From positions 5,921 through 69,920 of IMG/VR virus record IMGVR_UViG_3300042887_000598: a stretch of 64,000 nucleotides of DNA, one strand, 5' to 3'. This document shows positions 30,466 through 43,896 of this stretch, one piece after another (within the stretch, counting starts at the first letter, position 1; every line of letters starts with the position of its first letter). Under the pieces are notes generated by a model. The model was given only the letters and a program-made list of their open reading frames with translations, searched no databases and was not told where the DNA came from. The DNA is from a virus. A program made the translations under genes and the position numbers.

Positions 30466-30686
30466 ATCGCTCTCCTTTGAAGCATCTCGTCTGCGTGGTC
30501 AAAAGCTGCTGCGTGGATGCTGGTAAAGCAATCGTCGTTTTCAATGACCGAGCGGTCCCCGTAGTGGGCCAGCAAGCCTTGCAATGCGAACGCTGCAAAG
30601 AAATCCTGCATGGTCAGATCTTGGATCGACACAGGGTCTTGCTTGGCTACGATGGCCGCGATACCGTCAGGCTTTTTTCTTGCCAT
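30462..30686 (-). CDS. hypothetical protein
   Basis: LTMQDFFAAFALQGLLA...AFDHADEML, a common small phage protein pattern. Confidence 0.7.
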   Translation of the reverse strand: MARKKPDGIAAIVAKQDPVSIQDLTMQDFFAAFALQGLLAHYGDRSVIENDDCFTSIHAAAFDHADEMLQRRAI

Positions 30687-30987
30687 TGCCGCGCCCCTTT
30701 ACGTTCTGGTTGACGATCAGTTCTTCCAAGTCATCAGAGAGAATCTTTGCAAGAGTGTCGTCGTAGTAGCTGATTGCTTTGCACAACTCCACGCCATGGA
30801 TATGCCGGATGCAGTCACGCACGCCTTTGTTGTAGCCGCCATTGAACTCGTCGTCGCCTTCAACGATCAAGGTGATGGCGTCACGCACAAGGGCTGATGC
30901 TTTGCGGTTGCCTGCGGCCTCTTTGAGTTTGTTGTACACATCCTCCGGCAGGTGTACGGAGTATGGGATTAAGCGCTTTGCTTCCAT
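30667..30987 (-). CDS. putative ribbon-helix-helix DNA-binding protein
   Basis: YSVHLPEDVYNKLKEAA...SALVRDAI pattern. Confidence 0.55.
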   Translation of the reverse strand: MEAKRLIPYSVHLPEDVYNKLKEAAGNRKASALVRDAITLIVEGDDEFNGGYNKGVRDCIRHIHGVELCKAISYYDDTLAKILSDDLEELIVNQNVKGRGNGKKKA

Positions 30988-31394
30988 GATTGGAATTCCT
31001 CGTTGATGGCCCAGAATCTCTTGGCCTTTTGTTGGTCCTCTTTCAGCTCGGTGCGTGACTCAATGTCCAACTCACCCTTGAGCCACTCAATCACGTCAGC
31101 TTCCTTCGCTTCAAAGATTTCTTCTTTCTCGTGAAGGTACTGTGCGAACTGCTTATCGCGGCACAAAATGCCTGCGGTGCGAACAGGATCGCGGTGGTAC
31201 TCCGCATCCCTGTTCATTGGTTTGTCTTCGCCGTTTAATCTCACCATGACCACCTGATACCTTGCGCCCACGAAGTCTCTGAGCAAGCGCTCGGGGGCGT
31301 CGTCGGGGTGAATGTTGAGTGTCAACACCAGCCCCGTCTTGTCTTGCTTCATGGCGATCTTAACGGCCTCGAATTGAAGCGTTTGGATGGTCAT
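30969..31394 (-). CDS. hypothetical protein
   Basis: 141-aa ORF; AGILCRDKQFAQYL...IESRTEL. Confidence 0.65.
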   Translation of the reverse strand: MTIQTLQFEAVKIAMKQDKTGLVLTLNIHPDDAPERLLRDFVGARYQVVMVRLNGEDKPMNRDAEYHRDPVRTAGILCRDKQFAQYLHEKEEIFEAKEADVIEWLKGELDIESRTELKEDQQKAKRFWAINEEFQSWKQSA

Positions 31395-31396
31395 GG

Positions 31397-31798
31397 TCAG
31401 TACGACTTCCCGCCAGACTGCGCACGGTTCTCGATCTTGTGATCAGCACGGCTTTGGTTGTAGGCCATCTTCTCTGCAATGGCTCCAGCCAAGTCCATCT
31501 GATACGCGCCAGCCATGTCAAAGATTCGGATGACTGCATCGGCCAACTCCACTTCGCGCATCTTGCGGTGCGGCAGCTTGTCGTCCATCAGGTCTTTGCG
31601 ATCACCCTCCATTGCTTCGCTGATCTCGCTATGCACGAGGCACAGTTTGCTGCTGAAGCAGTAGGGGTTTTCGGTAATGCTTGCGCCAGTCTTCGGGTCG
31701 ATCCACCACCCGGCAGCCTTTGCTGCTTGGTGGCACTCGTACTGCAGGATGTCCGCTGCTGTTGTGATGGAGTCCATGTCAATTTCAAACTTGTGCAT
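31397..31798 (-). CDS. MazG-like NTP pyrophosphohydrolase
   Basis: LVHSEISEAMEG...EVELADAVIRIFD...KMAYN..R. Confidence 0.85.
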   Translation of the reverse strand: MHKFEIDMDSITTAADILQYECHQAAKAAGWWIDPKTGASITENPYCFSSKLCLVHSEISEAMEGDRKDLMDDKLPHRKMREVELADAVIRIFDMAGAYQMDLAGAIAEKMAYNQSRADHKIENRAQSGGKSY

Positions 31799-31806
31799 AG
31801 CTCACC

Positions 31807-32280
31807 TCATTCATATTTTGGTTTGTTGTGTCTATGCCATTCTTTGTGGCACTTTTCACACAACCATCTAACGTCGAGTGGTTTTGTGTAGTCATCGTGG
31901 TGTCCTTCAATTTTTTCTGTTGATCCACAAACGGAGCAATTGCTTGTTCGGATTAGCTTGCCATCACGAATTGCGTTACCTGTGATGACATGGGCTGCAT
32001 ATCTCATTGGGTATCTTTCGTGATAGGCCTTGATTCCTCGGCGGTGCGCCTCTTTTCCTTGCTCTGTTTTTGCGTACTCTTTTCTTGCCCTGATTCGATG
32101 CGGTTGATTGGATCGCAGCTTGTCGTAGGCTTGAATTTTTTCCAGATTTGCCTCTCGGTGTTTTGTCACTCTTGACTTAACGCATTCGATGCACTTGTTG
32201 AGGTGCCCGTCTGCCATTTTTGAGTGTTTGTAAAAATCAGAGAGGGGCTTCTCTGCGTTGCACTCTCGACATACCTTCAT
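31807..32280 (-). CDS. HNH-type endonuclease / Zn-finger protein
   Basis: CREC...CIEC N-terminus; CSVC...EGHHDDYTKPLDVRWLCEKCHKEWH. Confidence 0.75.
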   Translation of the reverse strand: MKVCRECNAEKPLSDFYKHSKMADGHLNKCIECVKSRVTKHREANLEKIQAYDKLRSNQPHRIRARKEYAKTEQGKEAHRRGIKAYHERYPMRYAAHVITGNAIRDGKLIRTSNCSVCGSTEKIEGHHDDYTKPLDVRWLCEKCHKEWHRHNKPKYE

Positions 32281-32318
32281 GATTGCTCCTTAAAACGGTA
32301 TGCAAAGAGTATACCATT

Positions 32319-32708
32319 CTAAAATGGCACGTCGTCGCTCATGTCATCAATATCTGCCTGTGCTGGAGTGGGTGCTTGGCGGCGCTCTTCCTGCGGCTCG
32401 GATTCCTTGCGCCCACCTTGCAGCGCAATCTCGCTCACACGCACGTCCATCGACTTGCGCTTGTTGCCTTCTTTGTCTTGCCATTCGCGCTCAGTGATGG
32501 TGCCGACCACGGTGACAGACTGACCTTTGGTGAGGTACTGAGACAGCGCCTCAGCACGCTTACCGAATAGAGAGCAGTTCCACCAGATTGTGGGCTTGTC
32601 ACGACCTTGGCTGTCGGCCACAGAGAAGCTGCAGATGGGGTCGCCGTTGTTCAGGTATTTGATTTCAGCGTCACGGCCCAAGCCGCCAGCGATGGTGATT
32701 ACGTTCAT
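32319..32708 (-). CDS. ssb: single-stranded DNA-binding protein
   Basis: GGLGRDAEIKY, WWNCSLFGKRAE, YLTKGQSVTVVG, acidic tail ending DDVPF. Confidence 0.93.
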   Translation of the reverse strand: MNVITIAGGLGRDAEIKYLNNGDPICSFSVADSQGRDKPTIWWNCSLFGKRAEALSQYLTKGQSVTVVGTITEREWQDKEGNKRKSMDVRVSEIALQGGRKESEPQEERRQAPTPAQADIDDMSDDVPF

Positions 32709-33406
32709 GCTTGCTCCTTGAATTTGTTGCGTGCTGTTTTGAATTCTTCCATGAGAGCGTCGTATGCAGAGCTACCCGGCTCCGCCTTCATGCGGTCATA
32801 GACGTTCTTGTTGGTTCTAAACAAACTCATGACCTCGGCCTCTGCGGTGCATTGCTCAAGACCCAACTTGGTTGCGTCCATCACGATGCTGGCCCAGTCT
32901 GCAAACTCACCTTGTGGCTCAATTGAAACCTTGAGTTGCCATGGGCCCTCCTTGCCTTCAATCTTGGCTGGAGGCGGCGATGCCTTGGCTGGTACAGCGG
33001 GTTGCGCTACCGGCTTTGCTGGTACTGCCTTGGGCTTAGCTGCGCTGTTGCCGTCATCGTCCTCGGGGGCTATGCCGCAGGCAGTCATTAGGCTGTATCG
33101 CCTCGCGTATGTCAACGCGCTGCCGTAGCCTTGTGCGTCATGCTTTGTAGCAGGGACGTGCAGCTTGCCGCTGCTGATCTGCTCGCCAGAGGAGTGGATA
33201 AAGATGGTCTCCACGATCACGCCGTTGTCGCACTCGTGCGTTGGCTGCATCATGAAGATGTCGTTGTTGTTCAGCGCATCAATGACAGCTTCAACGCAAG
33301 CAGACAGGTCTGCATAGCGGCTACGGAATGCCGGATTGGTGCTGGTCTTGAGTGCAGGGCCAAACTCTTTCTGAGCCTTGACCAGTGCTGATGCGATTTC
33401 TTTCAT
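32705..33406 (-). CDS. ERF-family single-strand annealing protein
   Basis: ALVKAQ...NPAFRSRYADL...QGYGSALTYARRYSL...GIAPEDDDGN; likely start MKEIASAL. Confidence 0.9.
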   Translation of the reverse strand: MKEIASALVKAQKEFGPALKTSTNPAFRSRYADLSACVEAVIDALNNNDIFMMQPTHECDNGVIVETIFIHSSGEQISSGKLHVPATKHDAQGYGSALTYARRYSLMTACGIAPEDDDGNSAAKPKAVPAKPVAQPAVPAKASPPPAKIEGKEGPWQLKVSIEPQGEFADWASIVMDATKLGLEQCTAEAEVMSLFRTNKNVYDRMKAEPGSSAYDALMEEFKTARNKFKEQA

Positions 33407-33597
33407 CGTGCTTCCTTGTGTTGTTGGTTCTTGGGGTGGAGTAGCCATTTGTCACCGAGCAACTCAATGGACCTCAGGCGCTTCTCTTCGTTGCGACCTC
33501 GGATGTATTCAATCAGCTCGGGGGTTACTGGCCCGTGCATTGGGTCAGCACTGATTGGGTTGACGTCAAACGTCTGGAAAAAATCTTTAACTTTCAT
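33403..33597 (-). CDS. hypothetical protein
   Basis: 64-aa ORF with GGAGG RBS, coupled to ERF. Confidence 0.6.
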   Translation of the reverse strand: MKVKDFFQTFDVNPISADPMHGPVTPELIEYIRGRNEEKRLRSIELLGDKWLLHPKNQQHKEAR

Positions 33598-33815
33598 GCT
33601 GCCTCCTTAGCTGCTTTGCGGTCTGCCCAACTCTTCTTCATGCGCTCAGATGCTGCCACTCTATTTGCATCCGTCCAGACGCGGCTGTTGCGCTTTTTTC
33701 TCACGAATGGCTGCGGTTTTTCTTTTGCAATCAAAATAAAAAGGTCTCTAACTTCTGCCTGCAATCTGCGGATAGCAAGTTGCATTTCATTTTTTTCTGC
33801 GCGTGAAATGAACAT
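33594..33815 (-). CDS. hypothetical basic protein
   Basis: 73-aa ORF with AGGAG RBS. Confidence 0.55.
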   Translation of the reverse strand: MFISRAEKNEMQLAIRRLQAEVRDLFILIAKEKPQPFVRKKRNSRVWTDANRVAASERMKKSWADRKAAKEAA

Positions 33816-33827
33816 GATGCGCTCCTT

Positions 33828-34040
33828 TTATACGTCGAGCTCAGACTGGGCTGTTTCGCCGTAGGTCTCGACCTTGACGCCGTTGCTCAGTGCTTGGACC
33901 AGATCATCTTGCGATGCGACCTTGGCGCTGAATGCAGACTTGGCTACGTGCGTGATGGCTTGTGATGCCACTGTCGCTTTGACCAAACGTGTTGCGCCAT
34001 CAGTGCTAGTGACAATGTAGATGCGGGTTGATGTTGCCAT
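33828..34040 (-). CDS. hypothetical protein
   Basis: 70-aa ORF with GGAGA RBS. Confidence 0.65.
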   Translation of the reverse strand: MATSTRIYIVTSTDGATRLVKATVASQAITHVAKSAFSAKVASQDDLVQALSNGVKVETYGETAQSELDV

Positions 34041-34945
34041 TAGATTTCTCCTTGAGTTGGCTTGGTTGAAAGATACTTTTTATGCTGCGAACAAAATGCA
34101 GCGACTTGGCAAAACCCTTCGCAGCGTGTGCGTGCGCCGGGCCTGTGCTCGATGAGGAAGGTTTCACCCTTCTTTGCTTTTTCGTTGGCCTGAGCCAGTG
34201 CGCGTTCGGCGTCTTCTCGTTTCTCGTGGACGCTCTTAGCCCTGACTCCGCCATCCTTTTTCACAGCAAAGTATTCAGGCTTCTCCCACATCTCTTCTGG
34301 CGTGCATTCCGCGACATCACTGCCCACCTCAATGTCGAAGAAGGCTGACTCCTGCAAGTGGATGCGCTGCTTGATGTATTCGTCTTGGCGCTCCACCGGC
34401 CACAGAGGGATGTCGATCACCACGATGGGTGCCTTGGGGTATCCCTCGCGTCCAGTGTCGCGGCGTGCCCAGTCACGGACGATGGCAACGATCTGCAGCT
34501 TCTTGACTGTCACGCCCTTGGCCTTGTGCAGCAAGTAAGCGTAGCAGTTCAACTGGTTGTGCCAATCTTGCTTTTCATTCATGACGGTCCATGCACCAAC
34601 AGTTTTATAGTCCGACAAAACAACGCCATCCTCATGCACCTCTTGCAGATCAATTGCACCAGAGATGTTCATGCCGCCAATTTGGATGTGTATGCGCTCT
34701 TCAACAATGTGGTTTTCATCCTTACCGTGCTCAAGAATGTTATGGATGGCTGTTCCAAAAATTGACCAAACCATGTCCGAAGAATCTTCTTCCAGTTCGT
34801 CCCAGTGCCTTCTTTTTAGCTGGACAATTCTTGGGCTCGTCATAAGCTCCGTGACTGACAAGTTTGCTTTCCCTTTTGAATATTGCGGCCTTTTTAGGAC
34901 ATTCAAAATTGTTTCTGGAAGCCCGTGTTTATTGGTCAACTTCAT
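34040..34945 (-). CDS. PD-(D/E)XK (Cas4/RecB-like) exonuclease
   Basis: SVTEL..PR, GTAIH..LE, ISGAIDL...DYKT, QLNCY, C-terminal RC..FC.VA.FC; in an operon with ERF and SSB. Confidence 0.85.
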   Translation of the reverse strand: MKLTNKHGLPETILNVLKRPQYSKGKANLSVTELMTSPRIVQLKRRHWDELEEDSSDMVWSIFGTAIHNILEHGKDENHIVEERIHIQIGGMNISGAIDLQEVHEDGVVLSDYKTVGAWTVMNEKQDWHNQLNCYAYLLHKAKGVTVKKLQIVAIVRDWARRDTGREGYPKAPIVVIDIPLWPVERQDEYIKQRIHLQESAFFDIEVGSDVAECTPEEMWEKPEYFAVKKDGGVRAKSVHEKREDAERALAQANEKAKKGETFLIEHRPGARTRCEGFCQVAAFCSQHKKYLSTKPTQGEI

Positions 34946-35639
34946 CTTTTTTCTCCTTCTGTTTTGCCAAAAACGCCAGCCTTGATTGGCGCATTTTTTC
35001 TCTTGCCTCCGGGGTGTATCTGTACCCTGTTTTTGACCAAGATAGCTTTGTTCTCATCGTCTCTGATTTTGGTTTTCCCATGTGAGCTTTTGAAAGTTTT
35101 TCTTTGTGCTCATCTGTGAGCTTCACGCCCTTTTTTGAGGCAATCATTTTTGCCATTGCTTCCGGGTTTACGCTAACGTGCTTCGCCATCATTGCTGCCT
35201 TTACGTGACTCAGCATTGGCCTGCCCTTGTTTGGCGACGGCTTACCGAACAGAGGATGGTTTTCCCCTTTCATGCGTTCGGAAATTTTTTTCCTAAATTC
35301 TGGAGATTGGCTTTGCTGCCTAATTCGCGCAACATGCTTTTCGTATTGCTCTGGCGGCATTTTCCTTCCAGAGTTTCCCTCGCCTCCGTTCGTCATATTG
35401 GTAAGGCGGCACCCCATGTCTTTGAAGCATAAGATCAAAAATTTCTCATGCTCAAATGCCTCTTGCTCGGTGTTCCACCCTGCGCAAATCTCAACAACTT
35501 TTCCATGCTTGTTTGCAACGCTCTTCCAAAAATTGCTTCGACCGGACGCGGTCCTTGCTCGCGTAATGCTTCCTTTGCCGACATAAAAAACAGAGCCGTC
35601 ATCCGCCTGACGATGGATGTATGTGTAGAAGAGTTTCAT
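34929..35639 (-). CDS. GIY-YIG homing endonuclease with NUMOD3 repeats
   Basis: YTYIHR...FYVGKG, LTNMTNGGEG, HPLFGK, EHKEKLSKAHMGK; likely start MKLFYTY. Confidence 0.85.
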   Translation of the reverse strand: MKLFYTYIHRQADDGSVFYVGKGSITRARTASGRSNFWKSVANKHGKVVEICAGWNTEQEAFEHEKFLILCFKDMGCRLTNMTNGGEGNSGRKMPPEQYEKHVARIRQQSQSPEFRKKISERMKGENHPLFGKPSPNKGRPMLSHVKAAMMAKHVSVNPEAMAKMIASKKGVKLTDEHKEKLSKAHMGKPKSETMRTKLSWSKTGYRYTPEAREKMRQSRLAFLAKQKEKKDEVDQ

Positions 35640-36001
35640 TTTGCTCTTCCCATTTCTGCTGCTGCGCGGACGATGGCTAGGCGGGTTGCGGCGTAAGGGT
35701 TTTTTCCGTGCGGCACTACACACCGCATTTGATGCTGGATTTCATTTAAGTAAAAAACGACAGCCTCTTTACCGACTTCCGTGTATCCCCGGCTAACAAT
35801 CAAATCCAACCTCACCGCCAGTCGTAGCGCATCGCCATCGTCTGTGAGGGGGTCAAACCATCTTCTAGGCCATTCATCTGCTTTTGTCATGAAGCCAATA
35901 AATCGGTTATCACCTTGCTTGGTTACGTTGTCTATCTGCATGGGGATGATTTCAACGCCAGCCGCCTTTGCAGCCAGTTCCAATAGTTCTTTGTCAGTCA
36001 T
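35636..36001 (-). CDS. conserved phage hypothetical protein
   Basis: ELLELAAKAAG...FDPLTDDGDALRLAV...ATRLAIVRAAAEMG. Confidence 0.75.
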   Translation of the reverse strand: MTDKELLELAAKAAGVEIIPMQIDNVTKQGDNRFIGFMTKADEWPRRWFDPLTDDGDALRLAVRLDLIVSRGYTEVGKEAVVFYLNEIQHQMRCVVPHGKNPYAATRLAIVRAAAEMGRAK

Positions 36002-36234
36002 CCTTCACGCTCCATCGCCATGGTCTGCTTGTGTACTGCCATGAACAGGCTCACTACGTCGTGCAAGCTCATGCCCATTGCGGATGTGTATTGCGACAGC
36101 ATGATGGCTACTGCGGTGGCTGCTGTGCCGCCAGTGTGGTCTGCGTCGTCAAGGATCAGTGGACCAAACTTGTTGGAAATCTGAATCGCTCTGACAAGAA
36201 TTGCTATCTCGTCTTTTCTTTCGTCTTCAGTCAT
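35998..36234 (-). CDS. hypothetical protein
   Basis: 78-aa ORF with GGAGG RBS, overlapping both neighbours. Confidence 0.6.
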   Translation of the reverse strand: MTEDERKDEIAILVRAIQISNKFGPLILDDADHTGGTAATAVAIMLSQYTSAMGMSLHDVVSLFMAVHKQTMAMEREG

Positions 36235-36706
36235 TGCTTCCTCCTAATGCGTTTTGAAGCTCTTTGTTCTTCACCTTCATCATTCCGGCGAGCATGGAAA
36301 TCTTTGCTTGCGCATCTGCGTTCTTTGCCCTGCCGGAGTCAGTCAACATCTCTGTCTTTGTGAAGCTGACGGACATGGCCATCTTCTTCATCTCACGACC
36401 GATTGCCTTGATGCCAGTGTCCACCGCGTACTGGGTCTGAGACTCCGGCTCAATGATCACGTAAGAGCCTTTGTTGTCGGACGCCAAGAGCATGCAGTGC
36501 GCTGTCAACAAGATGTCCTTAATCTCTGATGTGCATTGCAAGAGCTCGAGGTCATGCCGACGGACATCCTCAATACTCTCCGGTGGCTTCACATTGCAAA
36601 GCTCGGCGATGCGCTTTCTGCTGATGGTGCTACCGTAGGTGATGCCCTCATCAATCAGAACCTTGACGGCCTGCTTCCAAGCCGGGAACAGTGTTGTCTC
36701 TTGCAT
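36227..36706 (-). CDS. partner protein of the RAMP-like gene (possible winged-helix plus coiled coil)
   Basis: 159 aa; start overlaps the RAMP-like stop (TGATG); YGSTISRKRIAELC...NKGSYVII. Confidence 0.7.
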   Translation of the reverse strand: MQETTLFPAWKQAVKVLIDEGITYGSTISRKRIAELCNVKPPESIEDVRRHDLELLQCTSEIKDILLTAHCMLLASDNKGSYVIIEPESQTQYAVDTGIKAIGREMKKMAMSVSFTKTEMLTDSGRAKNADAQAKISMLAGMMKVKNKELQNALGGSND

Positions 36707-37275
36707 CAGACGAACTCCACATTGAAGCGGCCAAAACGTGGGCGATAGTCACCCAAACCAATGAGAGCTCCAGCATCTTGCACGGCCTTCTTCACCTCGT
36801 TGATGTTGACCACTTCCTCGTTGACAACGATGGTTGCGTTCAGTGACCACTTGCGCAGGATGGGGCGGTAGCGCATGATCTTTGCCATGCCAACCTTGAC
36901 GCCACGGCAGTCAACGTGCTCTGGGTCATTCCAAAGTTGCTCAGGTGTTTTCTTTTCGTAGCCTGTGAATACAAGATCATCCTCCAGCACCTGCACGCCT
37001 TGCTTGAACTTCACGCCGAGCTTTTGCATCTTGGCTGCGGCGATCAGGCACGCATCAAGGTTTTGTGCTGGCAAGAAGAAGCCAACATCCTTGCGCCAGT
37101 AGCAGCCGCCGATGAACTCACTGCGTGCGATGGCGGTGTGGTCGTCGTCTGTTTTCTTGCGTTTGCTGGTCAGCTCTTTGTGAGCCTTGGCAAGTGGGTC
37201 GAGCGGGTTTGCGAAACGGTCCGAGTGCATGAGCAAAGGGGCCTTACCTGTCAGTTGAACTGCGATTGTTTTCAT
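36706..37275 (-). CDS. stand-alone Cas7/RAMP-like RNA-binding protein (Vipr-like effector)
   Basis: 189 aa from ATG 37275 (AAGGAAAAC RBS). N-terminal strand VQLTGKAPLLMH; FLPAQNLDACL resembles RAMP IPGSSLKG; C-terminal Gly-rich loop IGLGDYRPRFGRF. Motif-level recognition only. Confidence 0.75.
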   Translation of the reverse strand: MKTIAVQLTGKAPLLMHSDRFANPLDPLAKAHKELTSKRKKTDDDHTAIARSEFIGGCYWRKDVGFFLPAQNLDACLIAAAKMQKLGVKFKQGVQVLEDDLVFTGYEKKTPEQLWNDPEHVDCRGVKVGMAKIMRYRPILRKWSLNATIVVNEEVVNINEVKKAVQDAGALIGLGDYRPRFGRFNVEFV

Positions 37276-37295
37276 GATGTTTTCCTTGGTTAATT

Positions 37296-37862
37296 GATGC
37301 ACGCTTTGCATCGAGATGACACCTCATTGAAGTGTCATAACGCTACATCAGCCCTCGCCGCGCCACTCCCGGCCTTTCCGTTTCACGCCGTGCCTTGCCA
37401 GTTGGTGTTGCCACCGAGGTGAGCTCTCATTGAAAACTCACGACGCTGTAAACAGCCCATACCGCGCCGGTCCTTTGCCCGCCCAGCCTGACCTGTGCTT
37501 GCCGATCCTCTTGGTGTTGCCACCGAAATAGTTCCTCACCGAAGAACCATCACGCTGTTAACAGCCCAAGCCGCGCCTCTCCAATCCTTGCCTCTCCGGG
37601 TCTCGCCCATGCTCTGCACGTCTTGCCTTTGCGGTCCAGTGCTCGGATAGCACTCAGAAAGATTTCTCCTTCTGGCTGTTATCAGCCCTAGCCAGTCCCG
37701 ACCTCGCCATGCCTTTCCTAGTCACGCTACGCAATGCCGTATGGTGTTACCACCGAAATGACTTCTTCTCAAAAGCCATCCCACTGTTAACAGCCCCTGT
37801 CATGCCGTTCCCTTGCAAACCCGGCCTAGCCTAGGCCAGAGAATCAATTATCAGGTAGGTTG
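37296..37862 (-). ncRNA. array of five putative guide RNAs: (triplet+NN)n pentamer tracts separated by three-hairpin linkers (VIPR-like)
   Basis: No ORF >=60 aa in 37312-37812. Five tracts with strict 5-nt period (37355-37399, 37459-37508, 37568-37637, 37689-37738, 37797-37833), each ending GGGCTG on the minus strand; GGTG-GNAA-CACC hairpin in three linkers. Confidence 0.85.
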
Positions 37863-37868
37863 GACTCG

Positions 37869-37898
37869 ATTGTATCTGCTATATATCAGGTTCGTCAA
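37869..37898 (-). promoter_or_regulatory. sigma70-type promoter for the array and RAMP operon
   Basis: Minus strand TTGACG (37898-37893), 18 nt, TACAAT (37874-37869). A divergent TACAAT at 37906-37911 lies in an ATTGTATC/GATACAAT inverted repeat. Confidence 0.65.
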
Positions 37899-37945
37899 CA
37901 GCCGATACAATATATTTTCAAATTATTTTCATAAGGACAAACCCT

Positions 37946-38230
37946 ATGAGACGAGCCGCCCGAAGAGACGACAACGAGCAGGAGATCATCAAGGCCATGC
38001 GTGCCGAGGGTGCGTATGTGAAGGTGATCAATGACGAAGGGCTGTTTGACTTGCTGGTGAGCCACCGTGGCGAGACTTTGCTGGTCGAGGTGAAGGACGG
38101 CTCGAAGCCACCATCGGCCAGACGGCTGACGGAGGCGGAGCAGAAGTTCCATGACGAGTGGCCGGGATCAGACCTGTACATCGTGAACAGTGTGGAAGAG
38201 GCCATTGCCCTGCTGCGCACTTGCGGCTAA
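37946..38230 (+). CDS. VRR-NUC / Holliday-junction-resolvase-like PD-(D/E)XK nuclease
   Basis: RAARRDDNEQEI...FDLLV...LVEVKDGSK...LTEAEQKF. Confidence 0.8.
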   Translation: MRRAARRDDNEQEIIKAMRAEGAYVKVINDEGLFDLLVSHRGETLLVEVKDGSKPPSARRLTEAEQKFHDEWPGSDLYIVNSVEEAIALLRTCG

Positions 38231-38270
38231 ACTACAGGCGGATTTCATGGCGGTTCTCCTTGATGAACTT

Positions 38271-38300
38271 ACCCCCACCTCAGACGTGGGGGTTTCTTTC
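38271..38300 (+). terminator. rho-independent terminator
   Basis: ACCCCCAC-ctcagac-GTGGGGGT followed by TTCTTTC. Confidence 0.6.
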
Positions 38301-38302
38301 AG

Positions 38303-38372
38303 GGCCATCACGCATGAGGATTGTCCTCTGGGAATTCCCGGAGGCCCGGAACAGTCTTCAGTCGTGATGGTC
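38303..38372 (+). ncRNA. structured RNA resembling the c4-2 motif
   Basis: ggccatcacgcatgaggattgt...acagtcttcagtcgtgatggtc nested stems; family assignment from memory of the consensus. Confidence 0.45.
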
Positions 38373-38458
38373 AAGCGCAACACTCGCGTCGGACTGGGGG
38401 TTCTCGGTTGCCATCAACCCTCTTGCACGCCAGCGGACTTCTTTGATATACTGGAGGC

Positions 38459-38586
38459 GCTAGGTGTGGAAACCAAGCAAGCAATCAAAGCCATCAGGCC
38501 AGACTCCGACCCCGAATGGGGTAGCGCACCGCCCATAAAGCGGAGTGTTTTTCCACCGGGGTCTGACTTGATGGCTTTTTTGTTTT
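38459..38586 (+). promoter_or_regulatory. long hairpin plus U-tract (attenuator-like; possible C4 target leader)
   Basis: aaagccatcaggccagactccg pairs with cggggtctgacttgatggcttt, then TTTTGTTTT; upstream GTGGAAA is complementary to internal TTTCCAC. Confidence 0.5.
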
Positions 38587-38724
38587 GTGTTCTTGAAGAT
38601 GGTGAATGCGCAGGCTGATGCGCAAGGTGAAATTGCTGTACGGGTTGTCGGAAACGCCGGTCACACAGGCTAGTAATCGCACAGCACGCCGGAGATCAGC
38701 ACCGGCCACCATCTTCAAGAACAC
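38587..38724 (+). ncRNA. C4-like antisense RNA (P1/P7 c4 family)
   Basis: 18-bp perfect closing stem (38587-38604 / 38707-38724) enclosing aatgcgcaggctgatgcgc and gccggagatcagcaccggc hairpins, matching the c4 pattern as I recall it. Confidence 0.65.
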
Positions 38725-39011
38725 TCTCCACACCAAGCCGTCAGGGCGCGTTAGCTGATGGTCTGCATGGACTGAACCCAAGAAACACCGGCGCTGGTAC
38801 ACCCCCAGTCAGCCGTCCAGCCTGTCAGCGAGGGACTGGGTAAGCCGGAGTGGCAAGTGGTGAGACAAACACTCCGACGACGAATCGCTGCCTCATGGGT
38901 TTGCTGGGAGAGCACTGCGCGTGCCCTCTGGGCAGGGAGTGAACAGCCTTGGCTATCACCCTTGGGGACCTGTGGCCTGAAATTTTTTGAGCTGACAGAA
39001 TTTTTGGCCGT

Positions 39012-39034
39012 AAAAAAACCCGTACTGTGACGGG
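39012..39034 (-). terminator. rho-independent terminator of the minus-strand small-gene operon
   Basis: Plus strand AAAAAAA-CCCGT-actgtg-ACGGG, i.e. hairpin plus U7 on the minus strand. Confidence 0.7.
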
Positions 39035-39047
39035 CTTCTCGGGCGGC

Positions 39048-39239
39048 TCAGTCCTCTAGCCCGAGCATGTGAACCCCTCGTCGCACGGCGGTCAGTACTT
39101 GCTCTAGGTTGCCATTACTGAGAATCAGCGGCTCCCTGATGTGCAGGGTGCAACAGTGCGCGTCCTCCATGCTGAGGGAGAACAGAACCTGCTTGTCCGT
39201 GTCTACGGCCTCGATGCGGGTTGGGTATACGTCGATCAT
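39048..39239 (-). CDS. hypothetical protein
   Basis: 63-aa ORF with GAGGAG RBS. Confidence 0.6.
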   Translation of the reverse strand: MIDVYPTRIEAVDTDKQVLFSLSMEDAHCCTLHIREPLILSNGNLEQVLTAVRRGVHMLGLED

Positions 39240-39421
39240 GCTATCTCCTCTATGCGTACTCTGACGCGGATTGGTTGAGCTGTTACGCCACTAGTCTTCT
39301 CGACCCTCACGGCAACTGCGGAGGCGTCTACTCTCTTCGTGTACAGAAACGGAACTCCGTTATGGCTGCGAAAGTTGCGGCCTCTGAGCTTGATAGCCCA
39401 TGCCTTGAAGTCTTTCTTCAT
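39236..39421 (-). CDS. hypothetical protein
   Basis: Start MKKDFKAW at 39421, ATGA overlap. Confidence 0.6.
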   Translation of the reverse strand: MKKDFKAWAIKLRGRNFRSHNGVPFLYTKRVDASAVAVRVEKTSGVTAQPIRVRVRIEEIA

Positions 39422-39681
39422 GTGTTCCCCCTTGCTCGGATGGCTTTGGCACACCAGTCACCGTCAGATAAGAAGTGGTCTTCGCACAATCCAGCACACG
39501 CCTCACGTTCCCCAAGAATCATGGTGTGGGCACGCTCCATCCATTTGTCACGCTCATCAGCACGGACAAGGGCTTCAAAGGCTTTGAGGTCTTCAAGAAC
39601 AGCTTGAACGTGTTCTTCCGAATACGCATCACGGAAATCAACAAGTCCAGCCTCACGGGCCATGTCTATCGTGTCTCTCAT
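39418..39681 (-). CDS. hypothetical protein
   Basis: DMAREAG...FEALVRADER...EREACA...AKAIRARG, a common phage small-protein pattern. Confidence 0.7.
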   Translation of the reverse strand: MRDTIDMAREAGLVDFRDAYSEEHVQAVLEDLKAFEALVRADERDKWMERAHTMILGEREACAGLCEDHFLSDGDWCAKAIRARGNT

Positions 39682-39920
39682 GCTGTCCTCTCAATACAAA
39701 CAAGGTATCGAATGTCGCCAGCCTTTGATCCGACTGCTGTGAACAACTGGGTCGTGAACTCTTTGCCAGCAAGCTCCTTTGGTCTACGGCTTTTTGGCGT
39801 ATTTACTGTTCGCATAACATTGGCGTAGTTGTCCAAGTCGGTTTCAATGTAATTGCGATATCCGATTTCCTGCATTGACGCAAGAAAAGTGTTCCAAGAA
39901 ATCTTATGCATTGTTGTCAT
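39678..39920 (-). CDS. hypothetical protein
   Basis: Start MTTMHKISW at 39920 after GGAGAAG RBS. Confidence 0.55.
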   Translation of the reverse strand: MTTMHKISWNTFLASMQEIGYRNYIETDLDNYANVMRTVNTPKSRRPKELAGKEFTTQLFTAVGSKAGDIRYLVCIERTA

Positions 39921-40306
39921 GTGTTCTTCTCCTTGAGTTTGGCTTCGATGGCTCGGGCGACTTCTGTAAAAGACAGCATTGCCGCACCAAGCGGAACACA
40001 AGCTTTTTCAATCTCCTCATCCGTCAGCCCAACCCATTGCCGCTGTGCTGCGGGTGGGGTGGTGTAAACGGGGCCAATCTTTTGATGCCGTGGGTTGTTC
40101 TTCTCAAAACCCCACTCGACTTGCTGAACATCGACAACCGTAGTCAGGCCCGTTTCCTCGTGCTGAAACAGGTAGCCAAAAGGCTCCTGCACAGGTGCTG
40201 GCTGCGAAGGCAAGCTGTGATACTCATGCGGCCCCGGCCCCCAGTCCTCTCGCACAGGCTCATAGTCCAGCCCCAACTCACGTTTAGATTCTGGAAAATT
40301 GTCCAT
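39917..40306 (-). CDS. hypothetical modular protein
   Basis: APVQEP...PVYTTPP...WVGLTDEE...IEAKLKEKNT. Confidence 0.6.
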   Translation of the reverse strand: MDNFPESKRELGLDYEPVREDWGPGPHEYHSLPSQPAPVQEPFGYLFQHEETGLTTVVDVQQVEWGFEKNNPRHQKIGPVYTTPPAAQRQWVGLTDEEIEKACVPLGAAMLSFTEVARAIEAKLKEKNT

Positions 40307-40772
40307 GAAGTTCTCCTGATGCCTTGGTGTATGCCGAATGTGCTTCTTCAGCAGTACTGAAATAACCCAAACATTTTTGCTTGCCAAGCACTCGAATATT
40401 GGCAATGAATTTTTTATCTCTTTTATGAAAAATTACACCCTTAAAACCCAACTTGTTATTTGCTTGAACACCCCTATTCATGCCATTTGTTGAATGTGTT
40501 GCTGGGCGTAAGTTTTCAATTCTGTTGTCGCTTTTATTGCAGTTAATGTGGTCAAGCTGTTCAGGCAAATTTCCATAAACATACAACCAAGCCAATCTAT
40601 GAGCCTGATGTATTTTTTGAAAAATTTTGATGCGGACATACCCACGTGAATTTATGGTTCCCGCTTTATCCCAAGACTTCATTTTTGGTGTGCATACTTT
40701 GCGCCAATAAAAATCACCCGTTTCTTTGTCGTACCAAAGAAATTCTTTAAGTGCTTCTTGTGTAATTTCCAT
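40284..40772 (-). CDS. HNH homing endonuclease with AP2 domain
   Basis: AHRLAWLY...[17 protein letters not shown]...LGYFSTAEEAH; AT-rich relative to flanks. Confidence 0.9.
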   Translation of the reverse strand: MEITQEALKEFLWYDKETGDFYWRKVCTPKMKSWDKAGTINSRGYVRIKIFQKIHQAHRLAWLYVYGNLPEQLDHINCNKSDNRIENLRPATHSTNGMNRGVQANNKLGFKGVIFHKRDKKFIANIRVLGKQKCLGYFSTAEEAHSAYTKASGELHGQFSRI

Positions 40773-40774
40773 GA

Positions 40775-41131
40775 TTACTCCTGATTTTGGTCGTAAGTTA
40801 ACCCGAGTTCTCTGGCGTTCTCTGCCTTCTTGTCGAGGGCTTGCTCCACTGCGCGGCCAGCATCGTAGCCATAGTTCCAGCCCATCTCAACCAGATCGAA
40901 TTGGTCTTCGCTGTAATGCTCGGTGCGGGGAACGCCATGCTCCAGCACGTTGCCACTCTTCCACTGCTCAAAGGTTTTGTAAATCATTGCGTTCTCCTGC
41001 ACAGGTGCTGAACTGGCTTGCTTAATGGCGGTGATGGCTACCTTGGCTCTGTCAGATTGCCATTGGCTGTTGTTGCTCCATTCGATTTCACCTAACGCCT
41101 CCAGCGCCAAGGCGAGTGCTTCGTCTTTCAT
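40775..41131 (-). CDS. hypothetical modular protein
   Basis: MKDEALALALEAL...APVQE...DKKAENARELGL. Confidence 0.65.
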   Translation of the reverse strand: MKDEALALALEALGEIEWSNNSQWQSDRAKVAITAIKQASSAPVQENAMIYKTFEQWKSGNVLEHGVPRTEHYSEDQFDLVEMGWNYGYDAGRAVEQALDKKAENARELGLTYDQNQE

Positions 41132-41403
41132 GTGTTCTTCTCCAAAAGCTGCTTCACTTGCTCGTACACGCCGTTCCTTGCGGTGTTGTCAGCTTCCAGC
41201 TTGTCCCATCCTGCGTAGCGCATCTCGTTTTCGCAGTGTTGAAACAACACATACATCTCACGCAAGCAGTCTGCCGATTTGCCGTGCAAGGGCCACTGCA
41301 TCGTCTTCTCCAACATGGCGGCAAGGCGCAAAGGCTTTGGCAGTTGTCCCACGCGCAACAGCTCTTGCGTTGCGTCTTCGGTTGTGTATTGGTCATTGTT
41401 CAT
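41128..41403 (-). CDS. hypothetical protein
   Basis: 91-aa ORF in an overlapping operon. Confidence 0.6.
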   Translation of the reverse strand: MNNDQYTTEDATQELLRVGQLPKPLRLAAMLEKTMQWPLHGKSADCLREMYVLFQHCENEMRYAGWDKLEADNTARNGVYEQVKQLLEKNT

Positions 41404-41674
41404 TGGTTTTCTCCTTCAATTTTGCTTCTGCTGTTTTGGCTCGTTCGGCCCACTCGTGAATTGCTTCAATGTGTGCGGCGTGTAACGTGCATTGCTGCAC
41501 CTGCTCCTCGCCTTTCCACCTGCAACTGCATGGCTTAAAGACTGGCTCCTGCACAGGTGCTGCAAGGACTTGCTTGATGGCGTCACGCTCACGTTGATAA
41601 GCGTTGTCATTGCCTTTGTCGGCCTCATACTCCAACGCCTCCAGCGCTAATTCGAGTGCTTCGTCTTTGGTCAT
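41393..41674 (-). CDS. hypothetical modular protein
   Basis: MTKDEALELALEAL...APVQEP...AEAKLKEK; GGAGG RBS. Confidence 0.6.
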   Translation of the reverse strand: MTKDEALELALEALEYEADKGNDNAYQRERDAIKQVLAAPVQEPVFKPCSCRWKGEEQVQQCTLHAAHIEAIHEWAERAKTAEAKLKEKTNEQ

Positions 41675-41765
41675 AATACCTCCATCAGCCAAAAGATACC
41701 TGTCCAGAACCACCACCAAACGGTGAGCATTCCGACCCCGGCCAAGATCAAAAGTAGTTTCTCTT

Positions 41766-42092
41766 TCATAGCGATTGCCCCTTCTCCTTACACGGCCACG
41801 TTGCACGTAGCAACTCCAAAATCAAACCGTCCGCAGCCAAGTGCCGCCGAGCAGGTGATCGCTCCAAATACAGCTTCGTCATGTCTACCAGTTGCCCAGC
41901 ATTGACAGAAGCAGGAGTGCAAACCAATGCCCACTGCAACGTATCTGCCACCCCCGTCACATACCCAATTGCATTCATCTGCTCCATCTGGGAGCTGCTG
42001 GTGATCTGCTCGTACAACTTATTCCCAGTCTTGAACTGCGCATGAGCCGAACAAGACAGCAGCAATCCAACAAAAAGTATTTTTGATTTCAT
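41766..42092 (-). CDS. secreted Rap1a/Tai-like immunity-family protein
   Basis: Signal peptide ending SAHA; TGNKLYEQ, GYVTGVAD, VCTP, YLERSPARRHLAA, C-terminal WPC. Confidence 0.7.
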   Translation of the reverse strand: MKSKILFVGLLLSCSAHAQFKTGNKLYEQITSSSQMEQMNAIGYVTGVADTLQWALVCTPASVNAGQLVDMTKLYLERSPARRHLAADGLILELLRATWPCKEKGQSL

Positions 42093-42179
42093 TTTTTCTC
42101 CTTGGCAACCACCACTGTGGAAGTTGCGGCTTCAGTCTACATCAACTTGTACCAGACAGCAATAGGGTAAACATACCTG

Positions 42180-42207
42180 TTGCAACAAATATTGTTTAGT
42201 GTAGAAT
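42180..42207 (+). promoter_or_regulatory. putative sigma70 promoter of the replication operon
   Basis: TTGCAA, 16 nt, TAGAAT in a divergent intergenic region. Confidence 0.4.
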
Positions 42208-42228
42208 TGTGCAGACAATTAGAGAGGA

Positions 42229-42693
42229 GTGTATGTGAGGAAGAGAACAAGGCGCAAGATTTACGACACAACGATGTGCCCTGTCACCCATGCCATTGTG
42301 GGGGCCAGCGTCACTGATGACGAGAGCTTGGATTACCTGAGAAAGATAGAGAACGACAGTTACGAGGCATTCAGAACTGGCAAAGCGACCAAGCGGGATT
42401 GGAACAACATCAACGTGGTTGCAAGGCACGCTGAGTCCATGGCAGCCGCCAACATCGGGCCGGAGGTCATGGTGGTGGTGAAGATTGCAGAGATGCACCT
42501 TTTGGAGGCCAAGGAGAGGTTCGAGCGGATCGGGAAGATGGGCACCACGGGCCTTGGCTTGAAGGCCATGAAGGAGCTTTTGGAATACCACGAGCTTCAG
42601 AGGACGGCGGTATCGCGCAGCGTGTTCGAGAGTCACATCAAGCGCATCACGGACATGATCAAAAGCAAGTCACCCAAGATCAAGTTTTTATAG
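42229..42693 (+). CDS. hypothetical protein
   Basis: 154-aa ORF with GAGGAG RBS. Confidence 0.65.
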   Translation: MYVRKRTRRKIYDTTMCPVTHAIVGASVTDDESLDYLRKIENDSYEAFRTGKATKRDWNNINVVARHAESMAAANIGPEVMVVVKIAEMHLLEAKERFERIGKMGTTGLGLKAMKELLEYHELQRTAVSRSVFESHIKRITDMIKSKSPKIKFL

Positions 42694-43023
42694 GAGGGCA
42701 AATGGGAAGAGAGCAAAAACCGGAGGCGATCAAAAAGGTCGCCAGCGTTTGGGACTACAAAGACAGGCCCAGCATCATGGCGAAGGATCAAACCCTGCGC
42801 CGCTCACAGTCAGCAACCAAAGGTCGTGTAATGCACGGCGATTTACCTGTAAACATGTGGTTTTTTAAGGAGAAGAAATGAACGAAGCACGAGAAAAGTT
42901 TGAGGCCATATTGGTCGCAAAAGGCAAGAGCAAGCCCGACTGGGACGGCCAGAAGTACGACAACATCAACATCCAGACCTACTGGCGCTGGTTTCTTTTG
43001 GGATGGACTATGAAGGACGGCAA

Positions 43024-43848
43024 ATGAACAAGGTAATGAACATCGGCGCTCTCGTGATGGACGAGCGCTTGCAATCCAGAACAGAGATCAACGAGGAGAC
43101 GGTATCGGACTACGCAGATGCTATTGGCACCGGCGCTGAGTTCCCTGCGGTGCTGGTCTATTTCGATGGCATCAACTACTACCTCACGGACGGCTACCAC
43201 CGAGTGCTCGCGCATAAGCGTGCGCAGAAGGTATCCATCCTGTGTGATGTAGTCCACGGCACCATGCGCGATGCCATCTTGCACTCCACTGGGGTTAATG
43301 CAAAGCACGGCATGCGGCGCACATACGCAGACAAGCGCAAGGCTGTGATGACCTTGCTCGATGACTTCGAGTGGAGCGACTGGAGCAATGCAGAGATCGC
43401 ACGGCGCTGCGGTGTGTCGGCACCTTTTGTAGCCAGCCTGAGAGACAGCGGTGGCGCGACAGAAGTTAAGTACAAAACCCCGAGCGGCAACGTAGCGACC
43501 AAAGCAAAAGCACCCGGTCGTCAGGCAAAAGAAAAAGAGCCGGAGCTCAAGGGCCCCGAGATAATTCCAGAGCAGCACGAGCAGGGCGATCAGAACCAAG
43601 AGGCCATCGACATGCTGTTGGCTGAGAACGAAGAGCTGAAGGCGCGTGTGGCAGTTGTGGCAATGGACGGCACACCCGAAGAAAAGCAAGCAGCCACAGA
43701 CATGATCAACGAGTTGCGTGAAGAGCTGCGCATCACCAAGATCGAGCTGAACGCAGTCAAGCAAAGCCGTGATCAGTATCAATCAGAAAATAGCCAGTTA
43801 AAAAAGCAAGTGATGTCGATGCAGCGTCAACTCAAGAAAGCTGCGTGA
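43024..43848 (+). CDS. ParB/Srx-like N-terminal domain protein with HTH and coiled coil
   Basis: LQSR..I.EETV..YA...FPAVLV...LTDGYHRVLA; WSNAEIARRCGVS. Confidence 0.75.
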   Translation: MNKVMNIGALVMDERLQSRTEINEETVSDYADAIGTGAEFPAVLVYFDGINYYLTDGYHRVLAHKRAQKVSILCDVVHGTMRDAILHSTGVNAKHGMRRTYADKRKAVMTLLDDFEWSDWSNAEIARRCGVSAPFVASLRDSGGATEVKYKTPSGNVATKAKAPGRQAKEKEPELKGPEIIPEQHEQGDQNQEAIDMLLAENEELKARVAVVAMDGTPEEKQAATDMINELREELRITKIELNAVKQSRDQYQSENSQLKKQVMSMQRQLKKAA

Positions 43849-43896
43849 TCATTGCCCAAGCCAGCGGGCATGTGTGCTGGCAGTTGGAGAAACCAA

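What the first reader, a model, noticed from the sequence alone, without database searches (positions are those of the whole stretch)
37683..37740. Guide decodes to the serine-recombinase motif TIVVYKIDRL: a wobble-skipping code
Seen: minus strand AC GGC AT TGC GT AGC GT GAC TA GGA AA GGC AT GGC GA GGT CG GGA CT GGC TA GGG. With one skipped base after each NN this gives T-I/M-V-V-Y-K/N-I/M-D/E-R-L, then TA (one base off the TCn Ser expected next). Established: VVxKxDRLxR is the conserved motif of resolvase/serine-integrase catalytic domains. No serine recombinase is encoded in this window. Inference: the guide targets a competing integrative element at a conserved motif and ignores third codon positions, so synonymous escape fails. 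The decoding was manual and I chose among two-fold ambiguous residues.
Basis: partly seen in the sequence, partly recalled or inferred. Interest (0 to 1): 0.93.

Follow-up and report, generated by a model that had tools for sequence, protein, structure and literature searches.

The report
Phage VIPR guide against serine recombinases
This stretch is one guide RNA of a phage VIPR system (a CRISPR-related DNA silencer described in 2026 preprints) whose variable bases spell, two bases on and one off, a conserved active-site motif of large serine recombinase genes carried by rival mobile elements; it is a good new example of a published kind of weapon.

Summary
The minus strand 37740-37686 reads exactly as quoted. 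It is the second of five pentamer guides, each followed by a structured tail. They lie between a promoter-like site and a gene whose product matches the solved SUSP1 Vipr protein (E 1.8e-44).

Read with one skipped base, the ten variable dinucleotides match 80 genome stretches (probably the listing limit) and 9 viral contigs. About 1 and 0.1 were expected by chance. 89 of 90 sites lie in frame in Resolvase-domain ORFs, as ...TIVVYKIDRL[S/T]R....

Controls in viral contigs gave 0 hits: unit order reversed, 0-nt skip and 2-nt skip. The phage record has no serine recombinase and no self-target. Sibling arrays keep the same ten dinucleotides, or carry a second guide reading YTRKSTEEGL, the catalytic-serine motif of the same genes.

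The April 2026 preprint gives the skip rule and wobble alignment. The October 2026 preprint shows a serine-recombinase target.

This scan noted similar guides before, in at least 7 other genomes. Expression, host and the actual resident target are not shown.

The parts
37869..37898 (-). Promoter-like site TTGACG-18-TACAAT upstream of the array
   Evidence: It was the only site found in 36100-38100, but shuffles give a mean of 1.1, so it is a consensus match only.
37797..37833 (-). Guide A. NN = TA TA CG TT AG AC AT AG. Target not identified.
   Evidence: The pattern's hits are at chance level and none lies in a recombinase. The 10-unit version from sibling L090 gave 0 hits.
37689..37740 (-). 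Guide B, the finding. Ten NN+triplet units (NN = AC AT GT GT TA AA AT GA CG CT) plus a last TA. With one skipped base it reads T-I-V-V-Y-K-I-D-R-L.
   Evidence: The same ten NN occur in siblings L090 and L092, with other scaffold triplets and another last NN.
37630..37688 (-). 3' tail of guide B (GGGCTGATAACAGCC..., divergent copy of the array's repeat)
   Evidence: I left this divergent copy and the fifth window tail out of the tail alignment. That alignment held 38 of the 41 tails found: 3 window tails and 35 sibling tails. It shows conserved ends and a central hairpin with compensatory changes in 8 of 19 predicted pairs. This unit folded alone is not more stable than shuffles (z -1.4).
37568..37639 (-). 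Guide C, 13-15 units. Target not identified.
   Evidence: An 11-unit pattern gave 0 hits in viral contigs.
37459..37510 (-). Guide D, 11 units. Target not identified.
   Evidence: It was compared only with loci L001-L089, with no match above shuffled controls.
37355..37401 (-). Guide E, 10 units. Target not identified.
   Evidence: It was compared only with loci L001-L089, with no match above shuffled controls.
36706..37275 (-). vipr gene, 189 aa from the ATG at 37275 (the open frame starts at 37311)
   Evidence: phmmer against PDB chains gives 36pp_D 'SUSP1 Vipr protein', E 1.8e-44 over residues 13-200 of the 201-aa ORF. phrog_4652, E 3.5e-67. K33 and the C-terminal G..GD.RPRFGRF loop are conserved in that alignment.
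36227..36706 (-). vap-like accessory gene, 159 aa; its start overlaps the vipr stop
   Evidence: phrog_5926. Weak pairwise similarity to the gene after vipr in Pseudomonas phage Medea1 (28% identity, E 8e-13) and in Escherichia phage allfine (24% identity, E 6e-6).

Best explanation
The tract is the guide part of one vrRNA of a phage-encoded VIPR system. The locus runs promoter, five vrRNAs, vipr, vap-like gene, all on the minus strand.

By homology with the SUSP1 and P. fulva systems, Vipr protomers bind the scaffold triplets along the RNA. They present each variable dinucleotide for pairing with double-stranded DNA in which every third base is skipped.

The ten dinucleotides of this guide equal codon positions 1 and 2 of T-I-V-V-Y-K-I-D-R-L. 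This is the strand that carries the conserved D-R-L of the catalytic domain of a large subfamily of large serine recombinases. The guide has the sense of the mRNA, so it would pair with the template strand.

The phage has no such gene. The likely role is to sit on the recombinase (integrase or excisionase) gene of a resident prophage, satellite or other integrative element in the host and block its transcription. That would hold a competitor in place, and synonymous changes could not free it.

Shown here: the Vipr homology, the vrRNA architecture, the exact and highly enriched match to recombinase genes under the 1-nt skip rule only, the absence of a self-target, and conservation of the dinucleotides in sibling phages.

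Inferred from the preprints: filament assembly, DNA binding, silencing and the ecological role.

The confidence given is for the whole statement. That the tract is a VIPR vrRNA guide whose code matches serine recombinase genes I put above 0.9. That it silences such a gene in the phage's host I put near 0.7.
For: System identity
- Vipr homology to the solved SUSP1 Vipr is E 1.8e-44.
- The array has five pentamer tracts, each followed by a tail of about 57 nt.
- The tails have conserved ends and a covarying central hairpin across the 38 tails I aligned of the 41 found.
- A vap-like gene is translationally coupled to vipr.

Target match
- The pattern matches 80 genome stretches and 9 viral contigs.
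- 89 of 90 sites lie in frame in ...TIVVYKIDRL[ST]R....
- 89 of 90 ORFs carry Pfam Resolvase, 75 Recombinase and 24 Zn_ribbon_recom.
- T44 to L53 are invariant or nearly invariant in the alignment, inside the Resolvase match.

Controls
- Viral-contig controls gave 0, 0 and 0 hits.
- 0 of 1018 shuffled 10-unit windows hit the loci at 19/20 or better.
- In an order-level sample, 26 of 301 genomes held 32 places, against 1 control place.

Self and siblings
- The own record has no match at up to 3 mismatches and no PF00239.
- Siblings L090 and L092 (97% Vipr identity) keep 20 of 20 NN bases, while 6 of 30 (L090) and 7 of 30 (L092) scaffold bases and the last NN differ.
- 17 of 49 arrays (window plus 48 relatives) carry a second guide reading YTRKSTEEGL. 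At 19/20 or better, its core 10-unit window has 52 matching sites in the 89 recombinase loci, 71 codons upstream of guide B's site in L004.

Target context
- One target contig, L085, is a temperate-phage fragment with a helicase, a Cas4-domain exonuclease, a Sak4-like annealing protein and regulators.

Published mechanism and precedent
-.
Against: - There is no direct evidence of expression. The promoter is a consensus match at chance frequency.
- The only RNA-library contig, in run X22, belongs to a relative with other guides and may be DNA carry-over.
- Only 5 of the 10 scaffold triplets are GGY (GGC x4, GGT x1). Two are GGA and three are TGC, AGC and GAC. The April preprint reports that perturbing GGY motifs abolishes silencing, so this copy could be weakened.
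- The host is unknown, and no target was shown to share a cell with this phage. The exact hits are spread over about ten phylum-level groups by their record titles.
- The 11th dinucleotide matches nothing.
- The other four guides of the array have no identified target, so convergence of several guides on one element is not shown for this window.
- Any exact hit must translate to T[IM]VV[Y*][KN][IM][DE]RL in that frame by construction. The independent evidence is therefore the count against controls, the flanking sequence and the domains.
Confidence: 0.75

Rival explanations
1. The unit is a real vrRNA of recombinase-matching ancestry, but it is now decayed or inactive. Three consecutive scaffold triplets (TGC, AGC, GAC) no longer hold the GG that Vipr reads.
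For: One search shows non-GG triplets in units 2-4. The orthologous guides in L090 and L092 have GAC, GGT and GGA there. The preprint states that perturbing GGY motifs abolished silencing.
Against: All 20 targeting bases are intact and identical to the siblings. [quoted passage not shown] Other guides of this array also carry GCA, GAC and GAA triplets.
Confidence: 0.1
2. The guide acts on serine-recombinase genes in general, including transposons, ICEs and genomic islands of the host. It would be a broad anti-mobile-element or host-manipulating device, not aimed at one particular competitor such as a satellite or prophage.
For: Exact sites occur in genomes whose titles span about ten phylum-level groups, often several per genome. 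OZ242188.1 has three loci, one MAG has eight contigs with hits, and L058 has two tandem genes. 26 of 301 genomes of one order hold a site at up to 2 mismatches.
Against: Breadth follows from reading only positions 1-2 of an invariant motif, and it says nothing about which element meets the phage. At least one target contig is a temperate-phage fragment, and 9 hits are on viral contigs. The experimentally studied precedent is a specific satellite.
Confidence: 0.2
3. The resemblance to the recombinase motif is a coincidence of a short, freely decoded string.
For: Any hit translates to the peptide by construction.
Against: There are 89 loci against about 1 expected, and all controls gave 0. 0 of 1018 shuffled windows matched. 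89 of 90 ORFs carry Resolvase. A second, independent guide in sibling arrays hits the same genes.
Confidence: 0.01
4. The guide regulates a gene of the phage itself or its own integration.
For: Some VIPR guides target other VIPR systems or regulators.
Against: There is no site at up to 3 mismatches in the whole 69,920-base record, which CheckV rates 100% complete. The record has no Resolvase-domain gene and no tyrosine integrase.
Confidence: 0.02

Closest known systems
Type II VIPR systems of Escherichia phage SUSP1 and a Pseudomonas fulva prophage (bioRxiv 10.64898/2026.04.26.720920, Results and three Methods sections read; 10.64898/2026.04.26.720927, outline and one Results section read)
   Same: A Vipr RAMP protein (E 1.8e-44 to the solved SUSP1 Vipr, K33 conserved). 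vrRNAs made of pentamer repeats with variable NN and a structured 3' tail. The order array, vipr, vap is as described for the cloned P. fulva locus (vrRNA1-3, vipr, vap1). The 1-nt skip rule holds, with the skipped base on the wobble position.
   Different: Vipr is only about 39% identical to the Felixounavirus proteins and 58% to the nearest named phage, Pseudomonas phage Medea1. The scaffold triplets are looser than GGY. The tail is a three-part element with GGGCTGTTnACAG and GGTGGCAACACC ends, and I did not test it for the SUSP1-type pseudoknot. The type assignment was not tested by phylogeny.
SUSP1 vrRNA4 against the excision recombinase of F5 satellites (bioRxiv 10.64898/2026.10.15.759431; abstract, one Results section, Discussion, one Methods section and found passages read)
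   Same: A phage vrRNA reads codon positions 1-2 of active-site residues of a serine recombinase of a competing integrated element. Wobble positions are skipped, so synonymous escape fails.
   Different: That footprint has six units, at residues 79-84, described as the buried strand just upstream of the catalytic serine. Here ten units read TIVVYKIDRL, 71 codons downstream of the catalytic-serine motif. The sibling-array guide YTRKSTEEGL is the closer analogue of vrRNA4. The targets here are not one satellite family of one species but a recombinase subfamily found under titles from many phyla. No experiment exists for this system.
Class 1 CRISPR-Cas crRNA and Cas7 filaments
   Same: A RAMP protein polymerises on a guide RNA, with periodic interruption of guide-target pairing by a thumb (as stated in the preprints).
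   Different: There is no repeat-spacer array, no cas1/cas2 and no nuclease in the locus. Three guide bases and one target base are displaced per unit, instead of one in six.

Membership tests
VIPR system | Vipr protein (minimal RAMP with G-loop and thumb) | tested here: met
   phmmer to PDB 36pp_D 'SUSP1 Vipr protein', E 1.8e-44, 188 aligned residues. The C-terminal glycine-rich loop and K33 are conserved in that alignment. No structure was predicted here.
VIPR system | vrRNA: 9-16 tandem YNNGG / GGY-NN units followed by a conserved structured 3' tail | tested here: met
   There are five tracts of 8-15 units in unbroken phase, each followed by a tail. Tail covariation is seen across 38 tails. 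In guide B, 5 of 10 triplets are GGY and 7 of 10 are GGN, which is looser than the consensus. The preprint allows a 'related consensus'.
VIPR system | Target recognition by the 1-nt skip rule | tested here: met
   In silico only. In viral contigs the 1-nt skip gave 9 loci, the 0-nt skip gave 0 and the 2-nt skip gave 0. A 3-nt skip was not tested.
VIPR system | vap accessory gene next to vipr | tested here: inconclusive
   The 159-aa gene overlaps the vipr stop. It has weak pairwise similarity to the gene after vipr in Medea1 (E 8e-13) and allfine (E 6e-6). It has no Pfam family and falls in phrog_5926, of unknown function. I did not compare it with a sequence named vap1.
VIPR system | vrRNAs expressed and bound by Vipr; transcriptional silencing of the target | not testable with these tools
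   Only a consensus promoter and an RNA-library contig of a relative were found.
VIPR type II (SUSP1 / P. fulva clades) | Placement in the Vipr phylogeny and type-specific vrRNA and vap architecture | not tested
   No tree was built. The classification data (data S4) are in supplements that I could not open. Identity to P. fulva Vipr is unknown.
Target: large serine recombinase | Resolvase catalytic domain plus Recombinase domain, with the guide site inside the catalytic domain | tested here: met
   89 of 90 ORFs carry PF00239, 75 carry PF07508 and 24 carry PF13408. The site is T44-L53 of the first sequence, inside its Resolvase match at 14-93. The one miss is L078 (TIVVYKIERLF).

The most novel reading that the evidence does not exclude
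This lake-phage VIPR clade keeps a standing pair of broad-spectrum anti-recombinase guides. One reads TIVVYKIDRL and the other reads YTRKSTEEGL. They occupy the same array slot in sibling phages as alternative cassettes. Each reads an invariant active-site motif, so a single guide could silence serine integrases of elements in many bacterial phyla. The guides would be inherited and held by selection on the dinucleotides while the scaffold drifts. That would make VIPR guides protein-motif readers of very wide reach, not strain-specific spacers. The repeated tails would be the sites of cassette exchange.
Probability: 0.35. Interest if true: 0.5.

Novelty: new member of a known kind. Interest (0 to 1): 0.3.

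Why it matters
It confirms, on an uncultured lake phage far from the E. coli and Pseudomonas models, two published ideas: VIPR guides follow the one-base-skip code, and serine recombinase active-site codons are a favoured target.

It adds a second target motif (the D-R-L strand) to the one published. It shows that sibling phages carry either this guide or a catalytic-serine guide. It gives a concrete 10-unit natural guide and target pair with 61 distinct natural target sequences, usable for testing tolerance at position 3 against positions 1/2.

It does not open a new kind of biology. The mechanism, the wobble logic and the recombinase target are in 2026 preprints, and this scan has already noted similar guides in other genomes.

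Tried and rejected
Rfam. A scan of 30000-45000 at E up to 1 found no family.

Pfam. It gave nothing for vipr or the vap-like gene.

Other guides against the recombinase loci. The window's other four guides were compared with the 89 recombinase loci, and none rose above unit-shuffled controls.

Other guides against viral contigs.
- Guide A extended as in L090: 0 exact hits.
- Guide C, 11 units: 0 exact hits.
- Guide A, 8 units: 20 hits, heterogeneous, none in an open sense frame and none in a recombinase. Eight of them share one identical 24-mer, which I count as one event.
- Guides D and E were never scanned against a collection.

Eleventh unit. The 11-unit guide B pattern gave 0 hits in metagenome contigs. 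A second metagenome scan was allowed but I did not use it.

Single-unit fold. Guide B plus its tail is not more stable than shuffles (z -1.4).

Sequencing runs. Runs labelled lake water metagenome hold the locus. 12 of them may be its source, so this is no independent support. Of the 24 runs listed I laid 4. The DNA contigs agree with the window. The one RNA-library run (X22) holds a relative at under 95% likeness, whose contig aligns to vipr and to the tails but carries other letters where the guides lie. I do not count this as evidence of transcription.

L118 tract. A miscalled long tract of L118 gave one 19/20 hit on L086 outside the recombinase gene, in no long open frame. It is unresolved.

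Host. I did not identify the host.

One search places. I did not run Pfam on the 32 places. By eye most read [I/T][I/V]VVYKIDRL and a few do not.

Supplements. Data S3 and S4 of the first preprint and Table 6 of the October preprint were not opened. They may already list recombinase targets for related clades.

Print search. Only two library searches bear on whether this particular motif is in print. Both found the October preprint and no paper naming this motif.

Full report
What is there. On the minus strand a promoter-like site (TTGACG-18-TACAAT, 37898-37869) is followed by five non-coding units. Each unit is a tract of pentamers, two variable bases plus a G-rich triplet, in unbroken phase. 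Each tract is followed by a tail of about 57 nt that begins GGGCTG. The array runs straight into a gene at 37275-36706, and then into a 159-aa gene whose start overlaps the first gene's stop. The finding is the second tract, 37740-37689. Its variable dinucleotides are AC AT GT GT TA AA AT GA CG CT, then TA directly before the tail.

What system it is. That led me to three 2026 preprints.
- The first (10.64898/2026.04.26.720920; Results and three Methods sections read) describes Viral Interference Programmable Repeat systems. These comprise a minimal RAMP protein (Vipr), an accessory gene (vap) and vrRNAs of about 100 nt, made of 9-16 GGY/NN repeats and a structured 3' tail.
- In that work the NN bases pair with double-stranded DNA in which one base is skipped per unit, and the skipped base falls 'overwhelmingly' on the wobble position.
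- The 201-aa ORF here matches the solved 'SUSP1 Vipr protein' (PDB 36pp chain D) at E 1.8e-44 over 188 residues. The match includes K33, whose mutation to alanine abolishes repression according to the structural preprint, and the C-terminal glycine-rich loop.
- The downstream gene is weakly similar to the gene after vipr in Pseudomonas phage Medea1 and in a Felixounavirus.
- I aligned 38 of the 41 tails found in this window and in relatives. I left out the window's two divergent tails, guide B's among them, and one sibling tail. The aligned tails share invariant ends and a central hairpin, with compensatory changes in 8 of 19 predicted pairs.
- So the locus is a VIPR system with the order array, vipr, vap, as in the cloned P. 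fulva locus.
- The window lies in an IMG/VR virus record of 69,920 bases that CheckV rates complete. Runs labelled lake water metagenome hold it.

Test of the decoding. I searched the dinucleotides with one free base between them, as the preprint's method does.
- The 20-specified-base pattern has 80 matching stretches in genome contigs (probably the listing limit) and 9 in viral contigs.
- My arithmetic expects about 1 and about 0.1 by chance. The second figure is scaled from the 20 hits of a 16-base pattern.
- Of the 90 sites in these 89 loci, 89 lie in long ORFs in the pattern's own frame and read ...D-TIVVYKIDRL-[S/T]-R-S... The exception is L078, TIVVYKIERLF.
- 89 of the 90 ORFs carry Pfam Resolvase, 75 carry Recombinase and 24 carry the recombinase zinc ribbon. 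They are large serine recombinases, and the site lies inside the catalytic domain.
- Controls in viral contigs gave nothing: units in reverse order 0, two skipped bases 0, no skipped base 0.
- In a sample of 301 genomes of one order, 26 genomes held 32 places at up to 2 mismatches, against 1 place for the backwards control.
- The third codon positions vary freely among the sites. There are 61 distinct 30-mers among the 90 sites, and the commonest base at each of the ten third positions ranges from 49% to 89%. A contiguous guide could not cover them.
- By record title the hits come from Alpha-, Beta- and Gammaproteobacteria, Nitrospirota, Myxococcales, Pseudobdellovibrionaceae, Lentisphaeria/Victivallales, Acidobacteriaceae, Phycisphaeraceae and Hydrogenedentota.
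- The role of the D-R-L residues in catalysis is recalled from the resolvase literature and was not checked here.

Evidence from relatives. I fetched 48 related VIPR loci and called their tracts with a simple periodicity script.
- Two siblings with 97% identical Vipr (L090, L092) carry the same ten dinucleotides. 6 of 30 (L090) and 7 of 30 (L092) scaffold bases differ, and so does the last dinucleotide (GA, TT, against TA here). This is the pattern expected if the dinucleotides are what selection holds.
- It also agrees with the last unit matching no target: the second base is A in 0 of 90 sites, and the 11-unit pattern has 0 hits in metagenome contigs.
- I compared all 1018 distinct 10-unit windows of all called tracts with the 89 recombinase loci. 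Two guide families hit at 19/20 or better: guide B, and TA AC CG AA TC AC GA GA GG CT. The only other hit was a single unresolved place from a miscalled tract of L118. No shuffled window hit (0 of 1018).
- The second family reads Y-T-R-K-S-T-E-E-G-L, the catalytic-serine motif of the same genes (alignment consensus RCAIYTRKS.EEGL). Its core 10-unit window has 52 matching sites in the 89 loci.
- Counting the window and the 48 relatives, 3 of 49 arrays carry guide B and 17 of 49 carry the serine-motif guide at 18/20 or better. None carries both. The window and its eight closest relatives each carry one of the two.
- In L090 and L091 the two guides end at the same coordinate, that is, in the same array slot.

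Self and target context. The phage record has no site at up to 3 mismatches, no Resolvase-domain gene and no tyrosine integrase. One target contig (L085, 14 kb) is a temperate-phage fragment: helicase, Cas4-domain exonuclease, Sak4-like annealing protein, regulators, and the 447-aa recombinase flanked by two small genes. Many genome hits are multi-copy or tandem. The motif therefore marks a recombinase subfamily rather than one element.

How it most likely works. By homology, Vipr protomers polymerise on the vrRNA, hide each triplet and present each dinucleotide. The filament binds double-stranded DNA, pairs with one strand while every third base is flipped out, and blocks transcription. This guide has the sense of the recombinase mRNA, so it would pair with the template strand. 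The preprint reports silencing on either strand. The expected result is that an integrated competitor cannot make its integrase or excision enzyme. That is what the October preprint shows by experiment for SUSP1 and the F5 satellites of E. coli. There a six-unit vrRNA reads residues 79-84 of a 506-aa recombinase, described as the strand just upstream of the catalytic serine, and the satellite stays integrated. None of these steps was tested for the present locus.

Against, and open.
- Only 5 of the 10 triplets of this guide are GGY, and three in a row lack GG. The copy may be weaker than its L090 counterpart.
- The promoter match is at chance frequency.
- The one RNA-library contig belongs to a relative with other guides.
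- The host is unknown.
- The other four guides of the window have no identified target.
0 of 20 exact hits lie in a recombinase or an open sense frame.

Comparison and novelty. The system, the skip rule, the wobble argument and a serine-recombinase target are all in print as preprints. This scan has already recorded VIPR guides against serine recombinases in at least 7 other genomes. I did not re-test those. Three things are particular here:
- the target motif, the D-R-L strand, 71 codons downstream of the catalytic-serine motif;
- the ten-unit perfect match to a motif shared across many phyla;
- the two alternative anti-recombinase guides in sibling arrays.

I file it as a new member of a known kind, with modest interest.

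Noticed in passing
L091:2376-2430, and likewise L093, L094, L105-L112, L116, L117, L119: Sibling VIPR arrays carry a guide whose dinucleotides read YTRKSTEEGL, the catalytic-serine motif of the same large serine recombinases. It is present in 17 of 49 arrays at 18/20 or better. None of these arrays also carries guide B.
   Followed up: partly
L090:2376-2430 against L091:2376-2430: Guide B and the serine-motif guide end at the same locus coordinate in two phages with 96-97% identical Vipr, as if they were alternative cassettes in one array slot. The conserved tails could serve as recombination sites.
   Followed up: no
window 37797-37833 (-): Guide A (TA TA CG TT AG AC AT AG) is conserved in siblings L090, L095 and L096. 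Its 8-unit pattern has only chance-level hits in viral contigs (20), none in a recombinase. Its target is unknown.
   Followed up: partly
window 37568-37639 (-), and L098-L101, L135: Guide C shares a dinucleotide core (CC AA .. GT GA TG GA) with guides in several relatives, which suggests a conserved protein-coding target. An 11-unit exact pattern found nothing in viral contigs.
   Followed up: partly
L085:8205-10386: In a temperate-phage fragment, the targeted 447-aa serine recombinase sits between two small genes (phrog_11806 and phrog_14161, the latter labelled 'recombinase'), as a three-gene cassette. L087 has the same layout.
   Followed up: no
window 34040-35723 (-): Downstream on the same strand lie a NUMOD3 homing-endonuclease-like gene and a PD-(D/E)XK, Cas4-like exonuclease, then an ERF annealing protein at 32705-33448.
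   Followed up: no
L086, about 534-581: A long, probably miscalled tract of L118 matches a site on L086 at 19 of 20 bases. L086 is a viral contig that also carries a recombinase with the guide B site. The matched site lies outside the recombinase gene and in no long open frame.
   Followed up: partly
window 36700-37900, run X22: A 1,436-nt contig from a wastewater RNA library aligns to vipr and to the array's tails at under 95% likeness, but has other letters where the guides lie. It is a relative with a different guide set.
   Followed up: partly
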